A stretch of DNA of 39,405 bases from a virus (Duplodnaviria; Heunggongvirae; Uroviricota; Caudoviricetes), in IMG/VR virus record IMGVR_UViG_2713896795_000007, positions 1-39,405 of that record; one strand, 5' to 3'. Within the stretch, counting starts at the first letter, position 1. Each line of letters starts with the position of its first letter. The notes beneath the pieces were generated by a model. That model saw only the letters and a list, made by a program, of their open reading frames with translations. It did not search any database and was not told the origin of the DNA. Shown here piece after piece: positions 19,328 through 35,821 of the stretch. The translations under genes and the position numbers were made by a program.

Positions 19328-20184
19328 ATCAACTTGCACTGTTAAGCCAGCGCCTGCTGAACACGCCGCTGGCCATTCATCCGCGAAAAGCGGAAATCAT
19401 TGTTACGGCACTGGCAGAACGACTCGGGATCACCCGGATAAAAACGGGGGCCTGGTATGACGATGATGAAGACGATTTCTGCCGTCCCGCCCGTGAAAGC
19501 GGGTACGACATTCTGGAAGGGATCGCCATCATTCCCGTGCACGGCACCCTGGTACAGAAACTGGGGACGCTACGGCCTTACTCCGGCATGACGGGGTATG
19601 ACGGCATCCGGCGAAATTTTCTGACGGCGCTTAACGACCCTGATGTTAAGGGCATCTGTCTTGATATCGATTCACCCGGCGGAGAAGTGGCCGGGTGTTT
19701 TGATCTGGTGGACACGATTTTTGCCTGTCGCGGGCAGAAACCGGTGCACGCCATTCTCTCGGAGTCGGCGTACTCGGCGGCCTATGCCCTTGCCAGCGCC
19801 GCCGACCGGATCATGGTCCCCCGCACGGGCGGCGTGGGATCCGTCGGTGTCATCTACGTGCACTGTGACATGTCGCGCCAGATGAAGGATGAGGGGCTGA
19901 ACGTGACCATCATCACCTGCGGCAGCCGGAAGGCGGAGACCAGTCCGCTGCGTCCGCTGAGTGAGGCGGCACAGGCGGCACTTCAGGCGGACACTGACGC
20001 TGCAGGCACGCTTTTTATCGAAACCGTTGCCCGCAACCGTGGCATCAGCGCGGATGCGGTGCGTGCACTTGAGGCCCGGACGTTGCGGGCTGACGAAGGG
20101 GTGCAGGCAGGGCTTGCCGACGACGTGATGTCGCCGGATGAGGCCTTTTCTTTTCTGTTAAAGGAGACAGCAAACAATGGGTAA
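19324..20184 (+). CDS. head maturation protease, S49 (SppA/ClpP-like) family
   Basis: DIDSPGGEVAG and SESAYSAAYALASAADRIM motifs typical of S49 peptidases; lambda gpC position. Confidence 0.85.
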   Translation: MNQLALLSQRLLNTPLAIHPRKAEIIVTALAERLGITRIKTGAWYDDDEDDFCRPARESGYDILEGIAIIPVHGTLVQKLGTLRPYSGMTGYDGIRRNFLTALNDPDVKGICLDIDSPGGEVAGCFDLVDTIFACRGQKPVHAILSESAYSAAYALASAADRIMVPRTGGVGSVGVIYVHCDMSRQMKDEGLNVTIITCGSRKAETSPLRPLSEAAQAALQADTDAAGTLFIETVARNRGISADAVRALEARTLRADEGVQAGLADDVMSPDEAFSFLLKETANNG

Positions 20185-23343: not shown

Positions 23344-23580
23344 ATGTTTGTGAAACCTGTACCGGGGCGCAGGGTGCGCTACCCCGGCGACCCGTCACGT
23401 CTGCTGCCTGATGAGGGGGCGGAGGTGCCGGATCGTGATTTGTTCTGGCGACGCCGCCTGAAGCAGGGGGATGTGGTACTGGCTGACAGGGCCACCACGG
23501 CAGCCACCGGCAAAGTGACCGCGTCCACGACAGCAACAGGCAGCACGTCTGCCAGCACGGCGAAAGGGGGTGATGCATGA
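23344..23580 (+). CDS. small protein preceding tail sheath (78 aa)
   Basis: GACAGGAG RBS; Thr/Ala/Ser-rich C-terminus; position seen in Mu-like tail modules. Confidence 0.45.
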   Translation: MFVKPVPGRRVRYPGDPSRLLPDEGAEVPDRDLFWRRRLKQGDVVLADRATTAATGKVTASTTATGSTSASTAKGGDA

Positions 23581-25079
23581 CGGTATCGTTCAGCAATATC
23601 CCGTCAAATCTCCGTGTGCCACTGTTCTATGTTGAAGTGGACAACTCAATGGCGAACAGCGCCACGGAGACGCAGCGCACCCTGCTGATTGGTCAGATGA
23701 CGGCTGCGGGAACGGCCACGGCAGGGACGGCATACCGCTGTTCATCGGCCTCCATGGCTGCCGGGCTGTGCGGGGAAGGCTCCATGCTGCATACCATGCT
23801 GATGGCCTACCTTAAAAATGACAGCTACGGAGAGACCTGGCTGCTGCCGCTGGCAGATGATGACAGCAGCATGACGACGGCCACAGGCAGTATATCTGTT
23901 GACAGTGTGCCGACGGCATCCGGCGTTATTTACCTGTACATCGCAGGCACCCGCGTGCGCCTGACGGTGAAGCCAGCGTACACGCGGGCAGAGATTGCCA
24001 GTCTGCTGGCAGACAGAATCAACGCCACCTCCGGGCTGCCGGTGACGGCCTCCGTGCCCCGTGATGGCACGACCGTTGAGCTTACGGCCAGAAATGCCGG
24101 TGAGACGGGAAACACCATTGATATCCGGCTGAACTATCTCGGGTCATCCGGCGGCGAGTCCACCCCGGACGGCCTGACGCTGACCATCACGGCGATGAGT
24201 GGCGGGGAGGGTGCGCCGGACCTTGCGGATGCGCTCGCCTCTCTGGGCGACCGCACGTTTGATTTCATTGTCCTGGCGTATTCCGACACCACATCGCTCA
24301 ACGACATGAAGGATTTTCTGTCGGATGACGAAGGTCGCTGGGCGTGGGACAAACAAATTTACGGCCATGCCTTCACGGCGGTAAACGGCAGCTATGGCGA
24401 GCTGGCAGACAAGGGAGAGCGCCGCAACGACCAGCACATGACACTCTGGGGAGTGTATGACGGTCCGAACACCTCATATGACTATGCCGCCGCGATGGTG
24501 GGGGCGCTGGCGCAGTCGGTCCGCAACGATCCGGCGAGACCCACCCAGACGCTGCCGGTATCCGGTGTGCTGGCCCCGCCGCTGGCAAGCCGTTTCACCC
24601 TGACGGAGCGGAACACGCTTCTCTACAGCGGTATCTCAACCTTCACGGTGTCGGCCGACGATACGGTGACGCTTGAGAATACCATCACCACGTACCAGAC
24701 CAACCGATACGGTGCGACAGACGACAGCTACCTGCAGATCGAGACGATGTACACGCTGATGTATGTATGCCGCGACATGCGCACACAGGTGACCTCGAAG
24801 TTTGGACGGATGAAGCTGGCAGATGACGACGCGAATATTCCGGCAGGGGCTGCGATAGCCACACCTGCGATTATTCGTGCTGAGCTGATCGCCCGGTTCC
24901 GGACGCTGGCGAGCAACGGCTACGTGCAGAATGCGGATGCGTTTGCGGAGCAACTGGTGGTTGAGCGTGACAGTGACAACCCGAACCGCGTGAACGTGGT
25001 GTGGCCGGGCCGCCTGATGAACCAGTTACGCATCTTTGCGGTGCTGAACCAGTTCAGGCTGAACAGCCGCAGCGATTAA
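23577..25079 (+). CDS. contractile tail sheath protein (Mu gpL-like)
   Basis: 500 aa, first gene of a Mu-like tail module and followed by the tube gene. Confidence 0.8.
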   Translation: MTVSFSNIPSNLRVPLFYVEVDNSMANSATETQRTLLIGQMTAAGTATAGTAYRCSSASMAAGLCGEGSMLHTMLMAYLKNDSYGETWLLPLADDDSSMTTATGSISVDSVPTASGVIYLYIAGTRVRLTVKPAYTRAEIASLLADRINATSGLPVTASVPRDGTTVELTARNAGETGNTIDIRLNYLGSSGGESTPDGLTLTITAMSGGEGAPDLADALASLGDRTFDFIVLAYSDTTSLNDMKDFLSDDEGRWAWDKQIYGHAFTAVNGSYGELADKGERRNDQHMTLWGVYDGPNTSYDYAAAMVGALAQSVRNDPARPTQTLPVSGVLAPPLASRFTLTERNTLLYSGISTFTVSADDTVTLENTITTYQTNRYGATDDSYLQIETMYTLMYVCRDMRTQVTSKFGRMKLADDDANIPAGAAIATPAIIRAELIARFRTLASNGYVQNADAFAEQLVVERDSDNPNRVNVVWPGRLMNQLRIFAVLNQFRLNSRSD

Positions 25080-25086
25080 CCATGAT

Positions 25087-25108
25087 GCCGCCTGCGGGCG
25101 GCTTTTTT
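25087..25108. terminator. hairpin plus T-run after the sheath gene
   Basis: GCCGCC-TGCG-GGCGGC followed by TTTTTT. Confidence 0.5.
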
Positions 25109-25118
25109 ACGGGAGACG

Positions 25119-25484
25119 ATGATGAGTCAGAACGCGTTAGCGGGCACCTGTACCGTGACGATTGACGGCGTGTCGGTCAATGTGGCCGGAACGTTCAGAT
25201 ATTCCGTGGGTGAAATCGAGCGTGAAACGCTCACGGGGATGAGCGGCATACATGGCTTTAAGGAGTCGTACAAAGCGCCGTTTATCGAGATGACGGTGCG
25301 TGATTCCGGCTCACTGTCACTGAAGGATTTTGCGGCATATACGGATGTGACGGTGGCGGCCTATCTGGTGAACGGCAAGACCATTCTCGGTCAGAACATG
25401 TGGCTGACTGGCCGGATTGAGACAGACAACAACGATGCAACCTTTACGGCCCGTTTTGAGGGGCGGGAAGTGACGGAGAGCTGA
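25119..25484 (+). CDS. tail tube protein (Mu gpM-like)
   Basis: 121 aa immediately after the sheath gene. Confidence 0.7.
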   Translation: MMSQNALAGTCTVTIDGVSVNVAGTFRYSVGEIERETLTGMSGIHGFKESYKAPFIEMTVRDSGSLSLKDFAAYTDVTVAAYLVNGKTILGQNMWLTGRIETDNNDATFTARFEGREVTES

Positions 25485-25486
25485 CA

Positions 25487-25765
25487 ATGAATGAGAAACA
25501 GACCGAAGAACTGGTGGTGACGCTGAAACGTCCGGTGAAGGATCCGGATACCAGGACCGAGTTCCGTGAGCTGCGACTGAAAGAGCCGGTGCTGTTCCAG
25601 GCGGAGGACTTTCACCGCAATACCGCCTCACTGGGCGCAATGGCGGCCATGCGTGAGCTGATTGCGGCAGTGGCGGGCGTGCCGTCTGCCCCGCTGAAAT
25701 TCATGGCGGTGTCCGATTACAAAAAGTGTGAGCGGTTCCTGACGGGTTTTTTCCTGGAGGCCTGA
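25487..25765 (+). CDS. tail assembly chaperone (short form)
   Basis: 92 aa between tube and tape measure genes; ends just after a GGGTTTTTTC slippery run. Confidence 0.7.
   Translation: MNEKQTEELVVTLKRPVKDPDTRTEFRELRLKEPVLFQAEDFHRNTASLGAMAAMRELIAAVAGVPSAPLKFMAVSDYKKCERFLTGFFLEA
25744..25753 (+). promoter_or_regulatory. candidate -1 programmed ribosomal frameshift site
   Basis: G GGT TTT TTC in the chaperone frame; a -1 slip opens a 52-codon extension ending at TAA 25903-25905, overlapping the tape measure start. Confidence 0.5.
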
Positions 25766-25894
25766 GCCAGTGGCAGGCGAGGGCGGCTGAACTAACGTGG
25801 TTCTTTCACTGGTCCCCGCGCGAGGCGTGGGGGCTGACGTCAGGGGAAATTCTCTGGTGGTCGTCGCAGGCAGAGCGGATCAACAGGCTGAGGA

Positions 25895-27859
25895 GTGGCG
25901 ATGGCGGGTAATGCTTTTGTTTTTGAGCTGAATGCAAAGGGTAACGCGGATGCGCTTTTACTGAGAGCCTCAGAGGCTGCCGGTTCGCTGGCAGGTCGCG
26001 CAGGGCAGGCGGCGGCCTGCGTGTCAGAACTGTGTGACGGGCTTGATGCGGTAAATGAAATGCCCCTGAAGGGGGCATCCGGTGCGGCGGATGCGCTGGG
26101 CGGGAAGATAACGCAGATCCACGATTCGGTTACGCTACTGATGAACGCGCTGCTGGCCACAGACAGGGCGGGTAACAGGGCGCTGGGAAGGGAGAGTCAG
26201 GAGAATGCGGACAGGATGTCCGGATATTTTGAACGGCTGTCCCGGCTGGGGAAGGACACGTCACAGCATTTCGGGGATATTGTGCCGCCGCTGCGCAATG
26301 TCGGGGCACTGTCATCAGAGCTGTTCAGTGCGCTGGGGCGCGGAGGTCTTGCGGGGCTTGCGGTCGCTGGCGGTGGCATGGCGGTGAAGGCGGTCGTCAG
26401 TAATCTTTATGATGCCTCGAAAGCGGCATACAGCCTGGATGTGAACGCAAGGAACGCCGGAATGCGCGTGAGTGCGTTCAGCCGCTTTGCCGGGGTGTTC
26501 CGTCTGATGGGCCTGTCGGCAGATCAGGCACAGGCGGAGACCGGTGCACTGTTCACGACACTGAACGATGCGCTGAACACCCGTTCACCGGAGGTCACGG
26601 GCATTCTTAACCAGTTTGGTGTGAAGCTGGCGGAGAACAGCGACCACACGGTGAACCTGGAAAAGAGCACGCAGAACCTGATTGATGCCTTCGGGAGACT
26701 GAACAGTTCGTCGCAGAAGGTGGTGGCAGACGCGCTGGGGCTGTCGGATGCACAACTGGCGCTGCTGCGGGGAACGAAAAACCTGAATGCGGCGCTGGCG
26801 GAGTCCGATCGTCTGGGGCTGTCGATGCCGGACAGTCTGAATGCGAAGCTGGTTCAGGCCAACAGCAACCTGAACCGTCTGTCAGCCGCGTGGGATGGTT
26901 TCACCGGCAGGATGAAGGCGAAGGTACTGGGCAGTGATGCTGTCACCGCCTCCGTGGACTGGGCGACCGATGTCCTGACCGGTCAGCGCAGCAGTCAGCA
27001 GAAAACGGGTGACCGTCTGTCAGAGCTGCGCGGTTATCTGTATGCCCATCCGGAGCAACTGAAATCACTGACGTCCCGGCAAAGATACAATCTCGATAAC
27101 AATATCGCGACATCAGATCTCCTGGAGATGCACACGCGTCTGTCCGGTCAGCGGTCCGACAGACTGAATGCGCTTACCACGATGCTGAATGACGATCTGT
27201 CGAAAGTTATGGTGTCTCCGGCCCTGTCACAGATCACGTCACCACAAAAAAACGGTGCCGGTGGTCGTGATATCACCCCTGAACTGCGGGCGCATTTTGC
27301 GGCACTGGAGAAGCAGTACAACCTGCCGGAAAACACGCTGTACGGTCTGGCCATGACGGAGTCGTCCGGGCGGGCGGATGCTGTCGGGCCGCTCACCCGT
27401 TACGGCACGGCAAAGGGGATGTTTCAGTTCATTGACCCGACGGCCCGGGAGTATGGCCTTTCCGGTATGGATGTATTCAACCCTTACCGGGCCTCGGAGG
27501 CAGCGGCCAGAAAACTGGCGGGGCTGATGGCGCAGTATGGTGGTGACATGCAGCGCGTCTTTCAGGCGTACAACTGGGGCGAAGGCAATATAAGCGCCTG
27601 GCTTCGCGGACAGAAGGGGATGCCACAGGAGACACAGACCTACGCGCCGAAGGTGTTCAGGCACATGTCGCAGGTATCCGGCGGCAGCATCATCATGCCG
27701 CAGTCCGGCAGTTCAGGGACTGACGTGCGGGATGAAATCAGTCGCGGTTTCAGCGAAAACAAAATCCGGCTGGACATTAACGTCACCAACACCGCCACGG
27801 GGCAGACAACCCGCCGGACGGTGAAGGGGGGCGCGGTGGTCACGGCGATGGATGTGTGA
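25895..27859 (+). CDS. tail tape measure protein with C-terminal lytic transglycosylase-like domain
   Basis: 654 aa, Ala/Gly/Leu-rich helical N-terminal part; C-terminal LAMTESSGR...GMFQF...QAYNWGEGN resembles the SLT catalytic motif. Confidence 0.85.
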   Translation: MAMAGNAFVFELNAKGNADALLLRASEAAGSLAGRAGQAAACVSELCDGLDAVNEMPLKGASGAADALGGKITQIHDSVTLLMNALLATDRAGNRALGRESQENADRMSGYFERLSRLGKDTSQHFGDIVPPLRNVGALSSELFSALGRGGLAGLAVAGGGMAVKAVVSNLYDASKAAYSLDVNARNAGMRVSAFSRFAGVFRLMGLSADQAQAETGALFTTLNDALNTRSPEVTGILNQFGVKLAENSDHTVNLEKSTQNLIDAFGRLNSSSQKVVADALGLSDAQLALLRGTKNLNAALAESDRLGLSMPDSLNAKLVQANSNLNRLSAAWDGFTGRMKAKVLGSDAVTASVDWATDVLTGQRSSQQKTGDRLSELRGYLYAHPEQLKSLTSRQRYNLDNNIATSDLLEMHTRLSGQRSDRLNALTTMLNDDLSKVMVSPALSQITSPQKNGAGGRDITPELRAHFAALEKQYNLPENTLYGLAMTESSGRADAVGPLTRYGTAKGMFQFIDPTAREYGLSGMDVFNPYRASEAAARKLAGLMAQYGGDMQRVFQAYNWGEGNISAWLRGQKGMPQETQTYAPKVFRHMSQVSGGSIIMPQSGSSGTDVRDEISRGFSENKIRLDINVTNTATGQTTRRTVKGGAVVTAMDV

Positions 27860-27869
27860 GGAGCAGAAG

Positions 27870-29276
27870 ATGGGCATTATCACAGACGCGGTGTCATCCG
27901 CCCTGGGGCTGTCTTCCTCCGGCGGGTGGGAGTGGCAGTCGCATATTCACCAGGCGTCATTTTGTGGCGTGCCGTTTGGCGTGATTCACGGCGAGGGGGT
28001 ATATGGTCGCCGGGTTGCGGTGCATGAATACCCGTACCGCGATACGGTCTGGGTGGAAGACCTGGGGCGCAGCGCCCGGAAGTTCACACTGCGCGGGTTC
28101 CTGATACAGGACAGTCTGGTGTACAGCGCGGGGGATGTGTTCAGTCAGCGGGATACCCTGGTGGCGGCCTGTGAAACATCCGGCGGAGGTCTGCTGGTCC
28201 ATCCGACGCTGGGTGAGATGACGGTGTATGTCCCGGACGGCGGGCTGCGTATTGAGGAGGGCGTGGAGTCCGGGCGTGTGTTTTCGTTCACGCTGACCGT
28301 CATTGAGTCAGGGGAAAAAGCGTTTTCACTGGTGACGGGGACAACCTCCACGTCATCGGAGACGTGGTATCAGACGCTGACCACAACGGCCACCGTGACG
28401 CTGGCGGCGATTACCGGTGAGATGAACAGTGTCACCGGGGCGGTAAAAACGATAAAGAGCACGGTGAGCGCGTGGAAGACGATATTTTCGCGGGCGGTGA
28501 CGTCGGTGACCAGCATGACCAGCACGGTGTCATCCCTGTATTCGCCTGACAGTTACGGGCGTTACTGTCGGGGCAGTGACACGCCGTCGGGCAGCACGGC
28601 CTCGTCGCTTGCAACGTGGCTTGCCACCACGGATGCGGATGATGACAGTATCCTGGAAACCATTCAGGCCTGCTCCGTGCAGGACCGGTCGGCGGCGGAG
28701 TCGGCGACAGCGGTGCTGGAGGATATCACATCCGTGTCCGGTGCCGTGTCCGCGATACAGGCGGTCATTATCACTCTGGCGGAGGCCACGGGCAGCGACA
28801 CGGAGAAAATCCGCGTCATGGCTGAGATTGCGTCGGCGGAAGACGGGACGTATTACGAAGGGGAGGCGGCAAATGCCATCTCTGCGGCGGTGCAGGCCCT
28901 TATCCGCACACTGGGGGCCGGAGCGATGCTGTGGCGGCTGATGCAGTATTCCCCCCGTGGTCACGACGACGCGGTGTTGGTGATGCGGAAGGCCCGCACG
29001 GTGACGGAAACCGTCCTGCTGTTACTGGCTGACCGTACGGATGACGACAGTTATGACGCGCTGAATGCGCAGTACACGCAGTTTGTCACCCACTGGCAGA
29101 CGAATTATCTGTCACAACAGGACGTGATGAAGGTGACCAGCCGCTCACCGCAGCCGTCGCTGGCGCTGGCAAACCGGCTGTATCAGGACGCCTCGCGTGC
29201 GGACGAACTGGTACAGGCGGTCTCTCCCGTCCATCCGGCGTTCATGCCGCTTTCCTTCACAGCGAGAAACACATGA
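27870..29276 (+). CDS. Mu gpN-like DNA circulation protein
   Basis: GAGGAG RBS before ATG 27870; size and position after the tape measure match Mu N. Confidence 0.7.
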   Translation: MGIITDAVSSALGLSSSGGWEWQSHIHQASFCGVPFGVIHGEGVYGRRVAVHEYPYRDTVWVEDLGRSARKFTLRGFLIQDSLVYSAGDVFSQRDTLVAACETSGGGLLVHPTLGEMTVYVPDGGLRIEEGVESGRVFSFTLTVIESGEKAFSLVTGTTSTSSETWYQTLTTTATVTLAAITGEMNSVTGAVKTIKSTVSAWKTIFSRAVTSVTSMTSTVSSLYSPDSYGRYCRGSDTPSGSTASSLATWLATTDADDDSILETIQACSVQDRSAAESATAVLEDITSVSGAVSAIQAVIITLAEATGSDTEKIRVMAEIASAEDGTYYEGEAANAISAAVQALIRTLGAGAMLWRLMQYSPRGHDDAVLVMRKARTVTETVLLLLADRTDDDSYDALNAQYTQFVTHWQTNYLSQQDVMKVTSRSPQPSLALANRLYQDASRADELVQAVSPVHPAFMPLSFTARNT

Positions 29277-30361
29277 GTACAACCACAGATGACACCCTGA
29301 CGCTGAAGGTGAACAACACCGTCATGTCGGGATGGAGCCATATCCGGGTGACGCGGGGTATTGAGCGCCTGCCGTCGGATTTTGAGCTTTCGCTGACGGA
29401 CTGGTATCCGCAGGAGGGCTTTCAGCTGGCCCCGCCGGGGAGCAACTGCACGATATCCATTGGTGATGACCGGGTGATGACCGGCTATGTCGACCAGTGG
29501 GTGAACACCCTGACGCCGCAGTCGCATGATATCCGGGTGACGGGCAGGGGAATGTGCCAGGACCTTGTGGACTGCGCCGCCTGGTGGGAGAACAACATGA
29601 TAAAGGGCGGCGATGCGCTGGCCATCATCAGAAAACTGGCGTCGGTGTACGGCATCACGGTGACGACAGACATCGACAGTTTCACCACGGTGCCGGATTT
29701 TGTCATCAACTGGGGGGAGTCGTCGCAGCAAATCATTGACCGCATCTGCCGGTATGAGGGGCTGCTGTATTACGACCTGCCGGATGGCAGCCTGTTCCTG
29801 ACGCGGGCAGGAACGGCGTCGGCAGCCAGCGGGGTGACGCAGGGGGTGAACCTGCAGAAGGCGGAGTACACACGAAGCATGAATGAACGGTTTTCGGAAT
29901 ACACCGGGCTGTCGGTGTCGGTGAACAGCCTCAGCGAGCTGTCACCGGCATCCGGTTATGACAGCGTGCTGCTGGCGACGGCCCGTGACCCGGAAGCCGC
30001 CGGTATGCGCACCCGTCGTCACGTGACGATAGTGGAGAGCACGCTGATGACGACGGGGTGTGCACAGCAGGCGGTGAACTGGGAAATGAACCGGCGCTAC
30101 GGGCGTTCCATGGCAGTGAACGTCACGGTGGACAGCTGGCGTGACAGTGCGGGAACGCTGTGGCAGCCCAACACCTTTGTGCCGGTGAGCATACCGGCAC
30201 TGGGGGCGGACAGTCTGAACTGGCTGGTCTCTGAGGTGACGTTCAGCCGTGACGATGAGACGGGGACCACGGCATCGCTGGTCCTGATGCCGCCGGAGGC
30301 GTTCAGCGTGCAGCCGTACCGTTTTTATTCCGGCGTGGCCGGAAGGGATGTGTCGTCATGA
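29273..30361 (+). CDS. baseplate hub protein (Mu gpP-like)
   Basis: 362 aa, between the N-like and spike genes. Confidence 0.7.
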   Translation: MSTTTDDTLTLKVNNTVMSGWSHIRVTRGIERLPSDFELSLTDWYPQEGFQLAPPGSNCTISIGDDRVMTGYVDQWVNTLTPQSHDIRVTGRGMCQDLVDCAAWWENNMIKGGDALAIIRKLASVYGITVTTDIDSFTTVPDFVINWGESSQQIIDRICRYEGLLYYDLPDGSLFLTRAGTASAASGVTQGVNLQKAEYTRSMNERFSEYTGLSVSVNSLSELSPASGYDSVLLATARDPEAAGMRTRRHVTIVESTLMTTGCAQQAVNWEMNRRYGRSMAVNVTVDSWRDSAGTLWQPNTFVPVSIPALGADSLNWLVSEVTFSRDDETGTTASLVLMPPEAFSVQPYRFYSGVAGRDVSS

Positions 30362-31379: not shown

Positions 31380-32534
31380 ATGCCGTTTGAGCGTCCCGGA
31401 TTAAGCGAACTGCGTGAGAAAAGCCGGTCGTATGTGACCGGCCAGCTGGATGAGGCCGGTGCCCTGCTGCGGTTTTCCACGCTGGGGATTCTGGCGGATG
31501 CCGTGGCGGGCATGACGCATCTGCATTACGGCTATCTTGACTGGATAGCGCAGCAGTGCACACCGGCCACGGCCACCGGGGAATATCTGGCGGCTTGGGG
31601 GGCACTGAAGGGCATCATCCGCAGGGCAGCAGTGGCGGCCACCTGTGAGGCGGTGCGCTTTACGGGCACACCGGGCAGCACGGTGAGCGCGGAGGCGGTG
31701 CTGAACCGTGCGGACGGGTATCAGTACACGCTGGATGAGGATGTGAGCATTGACAGTGACGGCAGCGGCACGGGGAGCATCACGGCGGTGCTGCCGGACC
31801 CGACGGATGACCGCACCGGCGGTGGTGATGACGGTAACGCGAATGCCGGAACGACCCTGACACCGGATGTCACCTGGTCAGGCATCGACTCAACGGTGAC
31901 GATGGTGAGTGCCGCCACCGGCGGCAGTGACACTGAGGATGAGGAAGCGTACCGCCAGCGCGTGCTGTATGCGTACCAGAACCCGCCTCAGGGCGGGGCG
32001 GCGGCGGACTATGTGCAGTGGGCGCTGGAAGTTCCCGGTGTGACCCGTGCATGGTGTGTGAACCGTGCACTGGGGTTCGGGACGGTGGGTGTTTACATCA
32101 TGACGGACGGAGATGATGAAGACAACGCCGGGGGCTTTCCTGACGGCACGGACGGGGTGGCAACGGATGAGGACTGGACGGACCGGAAAGCCACGGGGGT
32201 GCAGCTGACGGTGGCGGACCATATCCGGCAGTACCAGCCGGTCACGGCGGTGGTGTACGTGATGTCGCCGGTGGCCAGAAGCATTGATTTTGAGATACAG
32301 GGGCTGAGCAGTGCCACGGCGGCACTGAAGGCACGGGTGGAGAGTGCCATCAGCGAGGTGCTGTACAACGTGGGTGAACCGGACGGCAGCGGGGTGATTC
32401 ACCTTTCAGACCTCTGGTACGCCATTGCGGACACAGAGGGGACAGACGGGTTCATTCTGGTGTCTCCTGACAGCAACATCACGCTGTCGCAGGGAGAGCT
32501 GCCGGTGACCGGAACGATAACCTGGGCAACATGA
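31380..32534 (+). CDS. baseplate J-like protein (Mu gp47-like)
   Basis: ATG overlapping the previous TGA; about 385 aa in the conserved baseplate position. Confidence 0.75.
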   Translation: MPFERPGLSELREKSRSYVTGQLDEAGALLRFSTLGILADAVAGMTHLHYGYLDWIAQQCTPATATGEYLAAWGALKGIIRRAAVAATCEAVRFTGTPGSTVSAEAVLNRADGYQYTLDEDVSIDSDGSGTGSITAVLPDPTDDRTGGGDDGNANAGTTLTPDVTWSGIDSTVTMVSAATGGSDTEDEEAYRQRVLYAYQNPPQGGAAADYVQWALEVPGVTRAWCVNRALGFGTVGVYIMTDGDDEDNAGGFPDGTDGVATDEDWTDRKATGVQLTVADHIRQYQPVTAVVYVMSPVARSIDFEIQGLSSATAALKARVESAISEVLYNVGEPDGSGVIHLSDLWYAIADTEGTDGFILVSPDSNITLSQGELPVTGTITWAT

Positions 32535-35500
32535 GGAACAGGATGAGTCGTTTTTCACATGATGACTACACGCGCGCGATGCTGAACCTTCTGCCGTCAG
32601 GGATTGCCTGGAGCCGTCTGCCTGACAGCGTGCAGCACCGGCTGATACGCGGACTGGCACAGGCGTACCGGCAGAGTGACGCTGATGCGTGCGCACTGAT
32701 AACGGGCGCCTTCCCGGAAACGGCGGATGCGCTCACTGATGAGTGGTATGCCTCGCTGGGGCTGAATGATGAATGCGGGACGCAGGCATCCACCACAGAC
32801 CCGGCGCAGGCCAGAAAATTCATTCTGGCGAAACTGCTGTCGACGGGCGGGCAGAGTGTGGCGTATTTCACGGAGCTTGCGGCGACGATGGGGTACAGCA
32901 TCACTATCCGTGAGTACCGCACACCGCTGTGCGGATTTTCGTGGAGCGGGCATCTGCTGAGTGACGACAACCGGTTTAACTGGACCGTGGTGGTGGCACC
33001 GCCGGGGGATGAGGTGACCACCTCACGGGCGTACCTGGAGTGCCTGTTTCGTCGTTATGCCCCGGCGCATACGCTGGTGACGTTTGAGTGGCAGTCATCG
33101 TACAGCGCCGCTCTGAGCATTGCATGGGACAACATCACACACGTTCTTTCCGGTGCGCTCACGGCAGACGAGGGGGTGGTGGTGTCGGGGGTGACGGTGA
33201 ATGTTGTCATCAAATCCGCGTCGGGACAGCGGTATGTGGCGACAGTGACAACGGACAGTGAAGGGCACTGGTCGTATGAAATGGAGGATGATGATTTTGC
33301 GAACGGCTGGTATTCGGCGTATGCAGAGGCTGCCGTTGACATGCCGGATGACGTGACAGTACCGGTACGCAGTGAGGTGATAAATCTGCGGAAAACCGTG
33401 AGTGTGCGCGGTGTGAGCCTGTCGGTCACTGAGCTGGAGCTTGACAATGATGAGTGTGCTGCGGTTGCGGTGAGTGTCTGGCCGGAGAATGCTGAAGACC
33501 GGAGCTGGACTGTGACGGTCAGCGATGAAAGCGTGGTGTCGGTGGTGGTCAACAGCGACAGTTCACTGACCGTGTGCGGGGTGAGCGAAGGTGATGCGGT
33601 GGTGACGGTGACGACAAATGACGGCGGACACACGGCAACATTACAGGTCAGCTGTTACGTGCCGGCGGTTTTTGATTCGGTCTGTGCTTCATCGTCAAAA
33701 GCGCTGGTCAGTGTTGCTGATGTGGTGAACTGTCGTGTCAGCTTCGGCGACGGATATGTTGCTGCGGACCAGCTTGAAACGACAACCAGCGGGGGCTGGG
33801 CGAATATCCTGTTACCCGACTCACTGGCAGACGGGGAGCTCCGGACAATCAGGGTGAGAACGGCGGGGAGTGTCAGGTTCAGGGTGTACGGGTACAGCAG
33901 CACGGCTTACAACGACCTGGTCAGACTACGTCAACTTCCGGCGGGACAAAAATCCTGTAGCTACCTTGCGGGTAATACTCCCAGTCTGGTGAGTATTGAC
34001 AGCGGCGCATTCCGTTTTTGCAAAAACGCTACGGCATTCGACAGTGCATTTTACCGGTGTAAAGGACTGACTGCGATACCTCCGGGGCTGTTTGCTGAGT
34101 GCGCCAGCGCCACGACGTTCTATCAGGCATTTTACGAATGTACGGGACTCACTGCAGTCGGTGACAGCGCGTTTGCCGGCTGCACAGGCGTAACGACTTT
34201 TCGTCAGGCGTTTTACGGCTGTACCGGGCTGAGAGCGGTGGGTGAGAGCGTGTTTGCCGGGTGCACCGGTGCCACGACGTTTGAGGATACCTTTTATGGT
34301 TGTACCGGACTGAGCGCCGTGGGGGACCATGTGTTTGCCGGGTGCACCAGTGCGACAACATTTTACAGGGTCTTTTATAACTGCAGGGAACTGAGCACGG
34401 TGGGTAACAGCGTGTTTGCCGGATGTGCCAGTGCCACAACGTTTTTGCAGGCCTTTTATGGCTGCCAGGCGCTGACATCATTAGGTCAGGGGATATTTGC
34501 AGACTGCACCGGGGTGACGACATTCCTCCAGGCTTTTTATAACTGCAGGGGACTGACGGCATTGCCGGAAGGGATGTTTGACAGCTGCACTGCCGTGACC
34601 ACGTTCAGTAATGCCTTTTATGGCTGCACGGCTCTGACAGCAATACCGGAAGGGTTGTTTGACAGTTGTACCGGGGTGACGACATTCAACCGGACGTTTT
34701 ATGGCTGCGGGGCCCTGACAGCGATACCGGCAGGGCTGTTTGACAACTGCGTCTCTGTGACGACGTTCAGTTATGCCTTTGGCGACTGTGTGAGACTGAA
34801 GGCGCTGCCTGCCGGGCTGTTTGAAAACTGTAGTCGTGTGACGACCTTCTTCCGGACGTTTTATGGCTGCACGGAACTGGTAACGGTGGGGGAAAGGGCG
34901 TTTGCAGGCTGCAGCAGTGCATCGACGTTCGAAGGCACATTTTACGACTGCACGAAGCTGACAACGCTGGGAGACAGTGTATTTGACGGATGTACAGGTG
35001 TGACGTCGTTCTATCAGACTTTCAGTGGCTGCACGAAGCTGACAGCAATACCTGCAGGGCTGTTTGACAGCAGCCACGGCGTGACAACCTTCTACCGGAC
35101 ATTTTACCGGTGTGCCGCCCTGACGACGGTGCCTGAGGCGGTATTTGACCGTTGTGTCAGCGCAGGGTCTTTCCAGGATACGTTTTTCGGTTGTACGGGG
35201 CTGACGATGTTACCTGCAGGATTGTTTGATAACTGTACCCGTGTGACGTCGTTTTACCGGACGTTCCGGGGCTGTACAGGTCTGAAGACACTGCCGGAAG
35301 GGTTGTTTGACAACAACACTGCTGTGACCACGTTCAGTCAGACTTTTTACGGCTGTACGGGGCTGGCGGTGCTGCCTGCCGGGCTGTTTGAAAACTGTAC
35401 CGGAGTGACATCGTTCTATCAGACCTTTGATGGTTGCACGGGGCTGATGACGATACCGGACGGACTGTTTGCAGGACTCGCCAGCGTAACAACATTCAGA

Positions 35501-35821
35501 GAGACCTTTAACGGTTGTACGGGGCTGACCACTGTGGGCGACGGCTTGTTTGCGGGGTGCGTCAGTGCGACGACGTTTGAGGGCACCTTTTACGGTTGCA
35601 CAGGGCTGGAGAGTGATGTGAATGACATCCTCCCGGCGGAAGAGTACCCGCAAATAACCAGTGTGTACCGTTGTTTTTACAACTGCCGGTCATTGCAGGG
35701 AAGCGGATGTGCGCTCATTGAGAAGTTGCCTGGCGTGACGAGTTACGCGGATGCGTTTTATAACTGCGTATCCCTGAGCGATTTCAGCACCCTGTCTGAG
35801 CGTTATCCAGTCTGGGTTTAA
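32531..35821 (+). CDS. giant baseplate gp48-like protein fused to an Ig-like domain and about 25 Cys-containing leucine-rich-type repeats
   Basis: 1096 aa. The N-terminal ~200 aa sits in the Mu gp48 position; residues ~290-380 form an Ig-like beta-rich segment; from ~470 on, 26-27-aa units of the form F.GCTGLT.IP.GLFD.CT.VTTF..TFYGC repeat about 25 times. Confidence 0.8.
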   Translation: MRNRMSRFSHDDYTRAMLNLLPSGIAWSRLPDSVQHRLIRGLAQAYRQSDADACALITGAFPETADALTDEWYASLGLNDECGTQASTTDPAQARKFILAKLLSTGGQSVAYFTELAATMGYSITIREYRTPLCGFSWSGHLLSDDNRFNWTVVVAPPGDEVTTSRAYLECLFRRYAPAHTLVTFEWQSSYSAALSIAWDNITHVLSGALTADEGVVVSGVTVNVVIKSASGQRYVATVTTDSEGHWSYEMEDDDFANGWYSAYAEAAVDMPDDVTVPVRSEVINLRKTVSVRGVSLSVTELELDNDECAAVAVSVWPENAEDRSWTVTVSDESVVSVVVNSDSSLTVCGVSEGDAVVTVTTNDGGHTATLQVSCYVPAVFDSVCASSSKALVSVADVVNCRVSFGDGYVAADQLETTTSGGWANILLPDSLADGELRTIRVRTAGSVRFRVYGYSSTAYNDLVRLRQLPAGQKSCSYLAGNTPSLVSIDSGAFRFCKNATAFDSAFYRCKGLTAIPPGLFAECASATTFYQAFYECTGLTAVGDSAFAGCTGVTTFRQAFYGCTGLRAVGESVFAGCTGATTFEDTFYGCTGLSAVGDHVFAGCTSATTFYRVFYNCRELSTVGNSVFAGCASATTFLQAFYGCQALTSLGQGIFADCTGVTTFLQAFYNCRGLTALPEGMFDSCTAVTTFSNAFYGCTALTAIPEGLFDSCTGVTTFNRTFYGCGALTAIPAGLFDNCVSVTTFSYAFGDCVRLKALPAGLFENCSRVTTFFRTFYGCTELVTVGERAFAGCSSASTFEGTFYDCTKLTTLGDSVFDGCTGVTSFYQTFSGCTKLTAIPAGLFDSSHGVTTFYRTFYRCAALTTVPEAVFDRCVSAGSFQDTFFGCTGLTMLPAGLFDNCTRVTSFYRTFRGCTGLKTLPEGLFDNNTAVTTFSQTFYGCTGLAVLPAGLFENCTGVTSFYQTFDGCTGLMTIPDGLFAGLASVTTFRETFNGCTGLTTVGDGLFAGCVSATTFEGTFYGCTGLESDVNDILPAEEYPQITSVYRCFYNCRSLQGSGCALIEKLPGVTSYADAFYNCVSLSDFSTLSERYPVWV

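What the first reader, a model, noticed from the sequence alone, without database searches (positions are those of the whole stretch)
25487..25905. Probable -1 programmed frameshift in the tail assembly chaperone at GGGTTTTTTC
The chaperone ORF stops at 25765, but a -1 shift at the G GGT TTT TTC run (25744-25753) opens a 52-codon extension (FPGGLSQWQARAAELTWFFHWSPREAWGLTSGEILWW...) ending at 25905, overlapping the tape measure start. This matches the conserved long-form chaperone arrangement between tube and tape measure genes in tailed phages.
Basis: partly seen in the sequence, partly recalled or inferred. Interest (0 to 1): 0.45.

Follow-up and report, generated by a model that had tools for sequence, protein, structure and literature searches.

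The report
Tail chaperone -1 frameshift, P2 type
A prophage tail-assembly chaperone gene carries the classic slippery run that lets a few ribosomes shift back one base and make a longer second protein; this is a real, conserved instance of a well-known phage trick, and genome annotations leave it out.

Summary
The 92-codon chaperone ORF (25487-25765) lies between the tail tube and tape measure genes. It ends ACG GGT TTT TTC CTG GAG GCC TGA. From 25753 the -1 frame stays open for 52 codons. One detail is wrong: the last sense codon ends at 25908 and the stop is TAA 25909-25911, not 25905.

- The 135 nt that RefSeq leaves intergenic evolve under purifying selection in the -1 frame only (dN/dS 0.10-0.17, against about 1 or more in the other frames).
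- The -1 window contains no ATG, GTG or TTG.
- The extension is homologous to the E' part of phage P2 gpE+E', and the upstream part to the P2 gpE chaperone family (PF10109).
- An in-phase T_TTT_TTN heptamer sits at the same place in 78 of 80 viral-contig relatives (the other two are sequence artefacts), in two cultured phages and in P2.

The conserved slippery heptamer is T_TTT_TTC (25747-25753), not G_GGT_TTT. Either gives the same 141-aa product. No conserved stimulatory structure follows at the usual spacing, as reported for P2.

This is a new, unannotated member of a known kind: a P2-type E/E+E' frameshift inside a Mu-type tail module of a lambdoid E. coli prophage. Interest is low.

The parts
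25119..25484 (+). Tail tube gene (121 aa), immediately upstream of the chaperone
   Evidence: PF10618 Tail_tube 2.7e-33. phrog_185 tail tube. RefSeq relatives annotate it as 'phage tail tube protein'.
25487..25765 (+). Short form of the tail assembly chaperone (92 aa, zero frame, stop TGA 25763-25765); analogue of P2 gpE
   Evidence: PF10109 Phage_TAC_7 at 31 bits against a cut-off of 25, residues 11-89. phrog_166 4.5e-15. The exact protein is on 478 contigs and is named 'phage tail assembly protein'.
25744..25753 (+). Slippery run G GGT TTT TTC. It holds two overlapping in-phase heptamers, G_GGT_TTT (25744-25750) and T_TTT_TTC (25747-25753). The second is the conserved one.
   Evidence: Read directly from the sequence. 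T_TTT_TTN is in phase at the homologous position in L002, L017, L019, L021, L022, phiNP, BZS1 and P2 and in 78 of 80 viral contigs. U_UU.U_UU.Y is among the most shift-prone motifs in E. coli (PMC4066793).
25753..25911 (+). -1 frame extension: 52 sense codons (25753-25908) plus TAA. Joined to codons 1-89 it gives a 141-aa long form, the analogue of P2 gpE+E'.
   Evidence: Translation. dN/dS 0.10-0.17 in this frame only. No ATG/GTG/TTG in 25732-25908. phrog_10636 7e-10. PF06528 Phage_P2_GpE at 19 bits here and 25.5/23.1 bits in relatives. BLASTP against P2 E' gives 6e-7.
25889..25894 (+). GAGGAG, the likely Shine-Dalgarno of the tape measure gene, 6 nt before ATG 25901 and inside the extension
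   Evidence: Read from the sequence. The function is inferred.
25901..27859 (+). Tape measure gene (652 aa) with a C-terminal lytic transglycosylase domain. Its first 11 nt overlap the end of the extension.
   Evidence: phrog_2276 tape measure 2.2e-39. PF01464 SLT at residues 467-574. RefSeq relatives start at the equivalent ATG.
25811..25835 (+). Stable 11-bp hairpin inside the extension, 58 nt 3' of the slip site. Whether it belongs to the frameshift signal is doubtful.
   Evidence: -20.6 kcal/mol, z = -3.06. Mostly kept within the window's clade but broken in phiNP and BZS1. It is too far downstream for a canonical stimulator.

Best explanation
Most ribosomes translating the chaperone mRNA read ...GGU UUU UUC CUG GAG GCC UGA and release a 92-aa short form.

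A minority slip back one base while the tRNA-Phe molecules occupy UUU (P site) and UUC (A site) of the heptamer U_UUU_UUC (25747-25753). The overlapping G_GGU_UUU gives the same outcome. These ribosomes continue in the -1 frame from CCU (25753) for 52 codons to UAA (25909-25911). The result is a 141-aa long form with the same N-terminal chaperone domain and an added E'-like C-terminal domain.

By analogy with lambda gpG/gpGT and P2 gpE/gpE+E', both forms bind the tape measure protein encoded just downstream. The extra domain of the rare long form recruits the tube protein, so that the tube polymerises around the tape measure. Neither form ends up in the virion. The fixed slip rate sets the short:long ratio.

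Shown here: the geometry, the phase, the conservation, selection on the -1 frame, the absence of a start codon, and the homology to P2 E and E'.

Inferred: that slippage is ribosomal, its efficiency, and the protein functions.
For: Sequence and phase:
- establish the ORF, the slippery run and its phase.
- Synteny is sheath-tube-chaperone-tape measure-DNA_circ_N-GpP.

Homology:
- The chaperone domain PF10109 ends exactly at the slip codon, at residue 89 here and residue 85 in P2.
- The extension is homologous to P2 E'. PF06528 maps to P2 E+E' residues 104-139. It hits the window extension at 19 bits and the extensions of relatives at 25.5 and 23.1 bits. BLASTP gives 6e-7.
- Sizes are 92/141 aa here against 91/142 aa in P2 (PMC3091744).

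Selection and conservation:
- dN/dS in the post-stop region is 0.106, 0.122, 0.105, 0.169 and 0.136 in the -1 frame. The other frames give 0.99-4.2. Differences concentrate at third codon positions.
- There is no ATG/GTG/TTG in the whole -1 window.
- 24 of 65 distinct relatives also lack any start codon upstream of the conserved motif.
- In-phase T_TTT_TTN is present in 78 of 80 viral-contig relatives. The other two are an N-containing assembly and a disrupted gene that still carries the run.
- Cultured phages phiNP and BZS1 show the same arrangement at about 43% identity.

Literature:
- U_UU.U_UU.Y is among the most efficient -1 motifs in E. coli (PMC4066793).
- The conserved tail-chaperone frameshift is reviewed in PMC5009743.
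Against: - No protein or RNA data exist for this locus, so the fusion product is inferred.
- No conserved stimulatory hairpin or pseudoknot lies 5-9 nt downstream and there is no upstream SD-like element. Efficiency is therefore unknown and may be low.
- PF06528 scores below its gathering threshold on the window's own extension (19 against 23 bits).
- The relatives are homologous, so the 78 of 80 count reflects descent as well as selection.
- The protein sequence cannot distinguish ribosomal from transcriptional slippage, because both give ...GFFPGG...
Confidence: 0.88

Rival explanations
1. Transcriptional slippage. RNA polymerase occasionally adds one extra U while copying the T6 run (25747-25752). 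This yields a minority mRNA in which chaperone and extension are in one frame, and the protein product is identical.
For: The slip site is a homopolymeric T run, with 6 T here and 7 T in L017, L019 and L021. The predicted product GFFPGG is the same for both mechanisms. No RNA stimulator for ribosomal shifting was found.
Against: From established knowledge, efficient RNA polymerase slippage in E. coli generally needs runs of about 8-9 or more A/T, and six is short. In every sequence with exactly six T (window, L002, phiNP, BZS1, P2 and most viral contigs) the run is in the one phase that makes X_XXY_YYZ. Ribosomal slippage requires that phase and transcriptional slippage does not, although shared descent weakens the argument. 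The homologous P2 site is described and annotated as a translational frameshift (PMC3091744).
Confidence: 0.07
2. The extension is a separate small gene translated from its own initiation site, not a fusion.
For: Gene callers sometimes call a small ORF here. Examples are the 50-aa gene at L022 3276-3428 with a weak PF06528 hit and the family phrog_10636. Many relatives have an ATG/GTG in the -1 frame 27 nt before the end of the slip site.
Against: The window has no ATG, GTG or TTG anywhere in the open -1 stretch 25732-25908. A TGA at 25729-25731 closes the frame just upstream. 24 of 65 distinct relatives likewise have no start codon before the conserved motif. The upstream ATG/GTG seen in others is a by-product of the conserved Lys-Lys-Cys-Glu codons of the zero frame.
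Confidence: 0.02
3. Chance open frame or decayed gene. The -1 stretch is not translated, and the T run and open frame are coincidental or left by a frameshift mutation in a once-continuous gene.
For: An open -1 frame of 52-59 codons has a 5-16% chance in this G+C-rich module. RefSeq and GenBank records annotate nothing here.
Against: Purifying selection is specific to the -1 frame. The extension is conserved at protein level down to about 40% identity. It is homologous to P2 E'. The zero-frame stop and the two-frame layout are kept in all relatives, including P2, where both products are annotated as essential tail proteins.
Confidence: 0.02

Closest known systems
Bacteriophage P2 gpE / gpE+E' (-1 frameshift at T TTT TTG in the FETUD tail operon; Christie et al. 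2002, cited in PMC3091744 and PMC5009743)
   Same: - Same two Pfam families in the same order: PF10109, then PF06528 in the -1 frame.
- The slip site lies at the last residues of the PF10109 domain, with local sequence GGT TTT TTN.
- Product sizes are nearly identical: 92/141 aa here, 91/142 aa in P2.
- The extension ends a few nt into the tape measure gene: 11 nt here, 8 nt in P2.
- No downstream stimulatory structure is reported for P2 (PMC3091744) and none is conserved here.
   Different: - The last base of the heptamer is C here and T in the closest clade, against G in P2. That makes it U_UU.U_UU.Y, which is more shift-prone in E. coli (PMC4066793).
- An extra overlapping G_GGT_TTT heptamer is present here.
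- The surrounding tail genes are Mu-type (PF10618 tube, DNA_circ_N, GpP), not P2 FI/FII/T/U/D.
- The N-terminal domains are related only at profile level, and the extension is 33% identical.
Bacteriophage Mu gp41 and its frameshift product (verified -2 frameshift; Xu, Hendrix and Duda 2004)
   Same: Same position in a syntenic tail module: sheath L, tube M, chaperone, tape measure, N, P. The role is the same, a tail assembly chaperone made in two forms.
   Different: - Mu gp41 is 144 aa and belongs to PF23746 Gp41_Mu. It has only a sub-threshold PF10109 hit at 24.7 bits, and the window protein has no PF23746 hit.
- Mu shifts by -2 into the +1 frame (PMC5009743). Here the +1 frame closes after 15 codons and the conserved extension is in the -1 frame.
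Lambda gpG / gpGT (-1 frameshift at G GGA AAG; Levin et al. 1993; Xu et al. 2013, 2014)
   Same: The logic is the same. The chaperone gene sits between the major tail and tape measure genes. A rare -1 shift near its 3' end adds a domain, and the ratio of the two forms matters for assembly. In lambda the ratio is about 30:1 and neither product is in the virion (PMC5009743).
   Different: No sequence similarity to lambda was seen, and no lambda gpG/gpT family hit appeared. The heptamer differs. Lambda has a non-contractile siphovirus tail, whereas this module has a contractile tail with a sheath.
Citrobacter phage phiNP and Serratia phage vB_SspM_BZS1 (cultured phages with Mup41-like chaperone)
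   Same: About 43% identity over both frames. They have the same tail module, in-phase T_TTT_TTG or T_TTT_TTA, and a conserved -1 extension.
   Different: Their GenBank records annotate only the short chaperone and no slippage. The hairpin at the window's 25811-25835 is not kept in them.

Membership tests
Conserved tail-assembly-chaperone programmed frameshift of tailed phages (Xu et al. 2004) | The gene lies between the major tail/tube gene and the tape measure gene | tested here: met
   Tube 25119-25484 (PF10618), chaperone 25487-25765, tape measure 25901-27859.
Conserved tail-assembly-chaperone programmed frameshift of tailed phages (Xu et al. 2004) | A second ORF overlaps the 3' end in another frame and has no start codon of its own | tested here: met
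   The -1 frame is open from 25732 to 25908 and contains no ATG/GTG/TTG.
Conserved tail-assembly-chaperone programmed frameshift of tailed phages (Xu et al. 2004) | An in-phase slippery heptamer X_XXY_YYZ lies within the overlap | tested here: met
   G_GGT_TTT at 25744 and T_TTT_TTC at 25747, both in phase.
Conserved tail-assembly-chaperone programmed frameshift of tailed phages (Xu et al. 2004) | The slip site and the coding capacity of the extension are conserved in relatives | tested here: met
   Seen in 8 closer relatives and 78 of 80 viral contigs. dN/dS is 0.10-0.17 in the -1 frame.
Conserved tail-assembly-chaperone programmed frameshift of tailed phages (Xu et al. 2004) | Both the short and the fused long protein are made from one start, and both are needed for tail assembly | not testable with these tools
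   This needs mass spectrometry, western blots, reporter assays and genetics.
P2 gpE / gpE+E' type | N-terminal domain PF10109 (Phage_TAC_7) above the gathering score | tested here: met
   31.0 bits against 25, residues 11-89. P2 E+E' scores 47.5 bits over residues 7-85.
P2 gpE / gpE+E' type | The -1 frame extension belongs to PF06528 (Phage_P2_GpE, the E' segment) | tested here: inconclusive
   The window extension scores 19.0 bits, E = 1e-3, below the cut-off of 23. Extensions of relatives score 25.5 and 23.1 bits (above) and 20.0 bits. BLASTP against P2 E' gives 6e-7 at 33% identity. phrog_10636 gives 7e-10. Homology is well supported, but the curated threshold is not reached by this sequence alone.
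P2 gpE / gpE+E' type | Slippery T_TTT_TTG directly after the chaperone domain | tested here: met
   The position and T_TTT_TT are identical. The last base is C here and G in P2 and most relatives.
P2 gpE / gpE+E' type | Embedded in a P2-type (Peduoviridae) FI-FII-E-T-U-D tail operon | tested here: not met
   The neighbours are Mu-type: PF10618 tube, PF07157 DNA_circ_N, GpP-like hub. The head genes are lambda-like. It therefore works like P2 E/E+E' and shares its domains, but it is not part of a P2-like phage.
Mu gp41 type (-2 frameshift) | Chaperone belongs to PF23746 Gp41_Mu | tested here: not met
   No PF23746 hit for the window protein. Mu gp41 hits it at 119.5 bits.
Mu gp41 type (-2 frameshift) | The extension lies in the +1 (= -2) frame | tested here: not met
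   The +1 frame closes after 15 codons at 25788, and the conserved extension is in the -1 frame.

The most novel reading that the evidence does not exclude
In this clade the signal may be more than a plain copy of the P2 site. Two overlapping heptamers (G_GGU_UUU_UUC) use the highly shift-prone U_UU.U_UU.Y motif. A stable hairpin (25811-25835) sits 58 nt downstream, within the clade. Together these could set a higher or regulated short:long ratio. Alternatively, the hairpin could act on the normally ribosome-free stretch before the tape measure start, affecting mRNA stability, Rho access or tape measure initiation, rather than on frameshifting itself.
Probability: 0.1. Interest if true: 0.4.

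Novelty: new member of a known kind. Interest (0 to 1): 0.17.

Why it matters
The value is mainly for annotation. The short form occurs on hundreds of E. coli contigs and is named 'phage tail assembly protein'. The 141-aa long form is absent from a collection of about 15 billion proteins. RefSeq and two cultured-phage records leave the 135-nt extension as intergenic.

In P2, both E and E+E' are annotated as essential tail proteins, so the long form here is probably needed for tail assembly too. If so, the annotations leave out a required protein of this prophage family. The locus also shows module mixing: a P2-type chaperone and frameshift cassette sits in a tail module that is otherwise Mu-type, whereas Mu itself uses a different chaperone family and a -2 shift. 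Neither point changes current understanding of frameshifting or tail assembly.

Tried and rejected
- DNA search of the phage collection with 25100-26100 found nothing, even in distant mode. Only protein-level tblastn found phiNP and BZS1.
- The scan of one-genome-per-species contigs with the short-form alignment gave 156 pattern hits but no confirmed relative.
- The word-indexed protein search returned only 7 close homologues, so diversity was obtained from viral contigs instead.
- NCBIfam has no model for either form.
- A profile search of PDB sequences gave no credible solved relative; the best hit was E = 0.008 to an unrelated ribosomal protein. I did not attempt structure prediction, because only window and short-form sequences may be submitted, which would leave the extension without alignment depth.
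- Downstream stimulator: the 87 nt after the slip site fold no better than shuffles (z = -1.0). The consensus fold of 8 relatives has no conserved pairing within about 35 nt of the site.
- The GGAGG at 25757-25761 is not conserved (L019, L021 and L022 lack it). It lies 3' of the site, so I rejected it as an SD-like stimulator.
- G_GGT_TTT was rejected as the conserved site because the Gly codon is replaced by GAT, GTT, TGT or TCT in relatives.
- The Christie et al. 2002 paper (PMC135442) is not held. P2 facts are therefore taken from the GenBank record and from PMC3091744.
Full report
**Observation**

The window carries a 92-codon ORF at 25487-25765. Its 3' end reads AAA AAG TGT GAG CGG TTC CTG ACG GGT TTT TTC CTG GAG GCC TGA. 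The run GGGTTTTTTC occupies 25744-25753 and contains two overlapping heptamers that are in phase for -1 slippage: G_GGT_TTT (25744-25750) and T_TTT_TTC (25747-25753).

The -1 frame is closed by a TGA at 25729-25731 and is then open from 25732 to 25908. After a slip, the next codon is CCT at 25753. Fifty-two codons follow: PGGLSQWQARAAELTWFFHWSPREAWGLTSGEILWWSSQAERINRLRSGDGG, then TAA at 25909-25911. The stated end (25905) is not; the true end is 25908, or 25911 with the stop. The extension overlaps the tape measure ATG at 25901 by 11 nt. The fused product is 89 + 52 = 141 aa whichever heptamer is used, because both give ...L-T-G-F-F-P-G-G...

**Is it more than chance?**

The open frame by itself is weak evidence. 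With the composition of the tail module, 52-59 stop-free codons have a probability of 0.12-0.16, and 5% of in-gene positions there have a -1 frame that long. Of 25 in-phase slippery heptamers in + strand ORFs of the window, only this locus and one ordinary 4-nt gene overlap lead into a long -1 frame. In the G+C-rich late region, T6 runs on the + strand are rare: only 25103 and 25747 between 22 and 36 kb. The case rests on the comparative data below.

**Context**

The neighbours, in order, are:
- a tail sheath (23577-25079; PF04984/PF17482);
- a tail tube (25119-25484; PF10618);
- the chaperone (PF10109 Phage_TAC_7, 31 bits against a cut-off of 25);
- a tape measure protein with a C-terminal SLT lytic transglycosylase domain (25901-27859);
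- a DNA_circ_N protein (27852-29276);
- a Mu GpP-like hub (29273-30361).

This is a Mu-type contractile tail module. In E. coli ST2350, which is 97.7% identical over this kilobase, the same prophage has lambdoid early genes (RusA, Q) and a lambda-like head: large terminase, gpW, portal, S49 protease, decoration protein and major capsid protein. It lies next to an ompW remnant, yciE/F/G and trp. Only 8 of 5,426 complete E. coli genomes carry it at 85% identity or more.

**Comparative test**

I collected relatives at several distances:
- E. coli genomes at 98% and 92% nucleotide identity (L001, L002);
- assemblies whose chaperone is 67-80% identical (L017, L019, L021, L022);
- two cultured phages at about 43% identity, Citrobacter phage phiNP and Serratia phage vB_SspM_BZS1;
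- 80 IMG/VR viral contigs, mostly 35-45% identical.

In every one of the closer set, the zero-frame stop is kept and the -1 frame stays open to just inside the tape measure gene. It encodes a recognisably conserved peptide...WQxxAA(E/D)(L/V)TxFFxWxPxxAWxLTxxxxxWWxxQAxRIN....

The stretch that follows the zero-frame stop and precedes the tape measure ATG is left intergenic by RefSeq. Nei-Gojobori dN/dS against the window in that stretch is 0.106, 0.122, 0.105, 0.169 and 0.136 in the -1 frame. The two other frames give 0.99-4.2. Differences pile up at third codon positions, for example 4/5/17 and 11/7/22. This DNA is therefore translated in the -1 frame.

Among the 80 viral contigs, 78 have the extension in the -1 frame relative to the chaperone ORF, with an in-phase T_TTT_TTN heptamer in the overlap. 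The two exceptions are artefacts. L035 has an N directly after TTTTTTG that fuses the frames. L040 has a disrupted upstream ORF but still carries the run.

**Which heptamer, and how**

The glycine codon of G_GGT_TTT is not conserved. It is GAT, GTT, TGT or TCT in relatives. T_TTT_TTN always is conserved: C or T in the window's clade, G in most others and in P2, and A in BZS1. The conserved signal is therefore T_TTT_TTC at 25747-25753, and the overlapping G_GGT_TTT is an extra of this sub-clade.

Sharma et al. (PMC4066793) place H_HH.U_UU.Y, which includes U_UU.U_UU.C and U_UU.U_UU.U, among the most efficient -1 motifs in E. coli. They rank U_UU.Y as the second-best A-site tetramer. They also note that R_RR.U_UU.Y motifs, such as G_GG.U_UU.U, remain shift-prone.

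I found no conserved stimulator. The 87 nt after the site fold no better than shuffles (z = -1.0). The consensus fold of eight relatives has no conserved pairing near the site. No SD-like sequence lies upstream. This matches what is reported for P2 and its relatives (PMC3091744). The likely mechanism is simple tandem slippage of the two tRNA-Phe molecules at an intrinsically slippery heptamer, at a low fixed rate.

**Rivals**

- *Independent initiation* is excluded for this locus. There is no ATG, GTG or TTG anywhere in 25732-25908, and 24 of 65 distinct relatives also lack one before the conserved motif. The ATG/GTG that some relatives show 27 nt upstream is a by-product of the conserved Lys-Lys-Cys-Glu codons.
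- *Chance or pseudogene* is excluded by the frame-specific selection.
- *Transcriptional slippage* on the T run would give the same protein and cannot be excluded by computation. Six T is short for RNA polymerase slippage. Wherever the run is exactly six, its phase is always the one that ribosomal slippage needs. I give this rival about 7%.

**Comparison with known systems**

The closest match is phage P2 gpE/gpE+E'.
- In P2 the annotated -1 site is GTC GGT TTT TTG TCG.
- On P2 E+E', PF10109 covers residues 7-85, ending at the slip codon, and PF06528 covers residues 104-139, which is the frameshift-encoded E' part.
- In the window, PF10109 covers residues 11-89 and again ends at the slip codon.
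- The window extension hits PF06528 at 19 bits, below the cut-off of 23. The extensions of relatives reach 25.5 and 23.1 bits.
- BLASTP of the long form against P2 E+E' aligns the extension with E' at E = 6e-7 and 33% identity.
- Product sizes are 92/141 aa here against 91/142 aa in P2 (PMC3091744).
- In both, the extension ends a few bases into the tape measure gene.

Mu itself, whose tail module this otherwise resembles, is different. Its gp41 is 144 aa and belongs to PF23746, and its verified shift is -2 (PMC5009743). In the window the +1 frame closes after 15 codons. The general logic is that of lambda gpG/gpGT: a roughly 30:1 ratio, binding to the tape measure protein, recruitment of the tail tube subunit by the extra domain, and absence from virions (PMC5009743). 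Those functional steps are inferred here by homology and position.

**Novelty and value**

The kind is well known (Levin 1993; Christie 2002; Xu 2004). This is an unannotated member. The short form is on 478 contigs as 'phage tail assembly protein'. The 141-aa long form is not in a collection of about 15 billion proteins. RefSeq and the phiNP and BZS1 GenBank records annotate only the short ORF. One mildly interesting point is the mosaic: a P2-type chaperone/frameshift cassette inside a Mu-type tail module on a lambdoid prophage.

An 11-bp hairpin at 25811-25835 (-20.6 kcal/mol, z = -3.06) lies 58 nt downstream of the slip site. It is kept within the window's clade but not beyond it. It is too far away to be a canonical stimulator and remains unexplained.

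**Verdict**

Interest is low.

Noticed in passing
window 25811-25835: Stable 11-bp hairpin (GGUCCCCGCGC-GAG-GCGUGGGGGCU, -20.6 kcal/mol, z = -3.06) inside the -1 extension, 58 nt 3' of the slip site. It is mostly kept in the window's clade, with double changes in L021, but is broken in phiNP and BZS1. It is too distant for a canonical frameshift stimulator, and its role is unknown. It may simply follow from the conserved W-S-P-R-E-A-W-G codons.
   Followed up: partly
window 14102-14108: In-phase T_TTA_AAG heptamer 12 nt before the stop of ORF 13440-14120 (phrog_1924, 'minor tail protein'). The -1 frame continues into the next ORF, 14117-14449 (GTG start, no PHROG hit). This is probably an ordinary 4-nt overlap of coupled genes, but U_UU.A_AA.G is a very efficient -1 motif in E. 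coli.
   Followed up: partly
window 10358-10433 and 10437-10511: The prophage carries tRNA-Thr (anticodon UGU) and tRNA-Gly (anticodon UCC, reads GGA/GGG) downstream of the Q/methyltransferase region. The first codons of the frameshift extension include GGA, and the -1 P-site codon of G_GGU_UUU would be GGG. I know of no link, and this is likely coincidence.
   Followed up: no
L001 3667-3801, L002 3667-3801, L024 2756-2896, L025 2765-2885: RefSeq (PGAP) E. coli records and the GenBank records of the cultured phages phiNP and vB_SspM_BZS1 annotate only the short chaperone and leave the conserved extension as intergenic. The 141-aa long form is absent from a collection of about 15 billion proteins.
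   Followed up: yes
L035 about 1695-1705 (IMGVR_UViG_2671180930_000005); L040 about 1400-1760: L035 has an ambiguous base (N) directly after TTTTTTG that artificially fuses the chaperone and extension into one frame. This looks like an assembly problem at the homopolymer. L040 has a frame-disrupted chaperone N-terminal part but keeps the slippery run and the extension.
   Followed up: yes
window 32531-35821: A 1096-aa ORF combines an N-terminal baseplate-wedge-like part (phrog_203), Ig-like domains and a large repeat region (phrog_9915, five stretches). The counterpart in E. coli ST2350 is 4332 nt long and is annotated as a leucine-rich repeat protein. This appears to be a variable, unusual host-recognition protein for a Mu-type baseplate.
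   Followed up: no
window 25901-27859: The tape measure protein carries an SLT lytic transglycosylase domain (PF01464, residues 467-574). RefSeq therefore names it only 'lytic transglycosylase domain-containing protein' and not a tape measure.
   Followed up: partly
L027 2686 (P2, AF063097 position 19685): The join in the P2 GenBank record re-reads base 19685, the T after TTTTTTG, and gives ...GFL-F-AEL... Tandem slippage on T_TTT_TTG would re-read the G and give ...GFL-V-AEL... The exact junction residue in P2 therefore depends on which annotation or mechanism is assumed. In the window the junction is the same either way.
   Followed up: no
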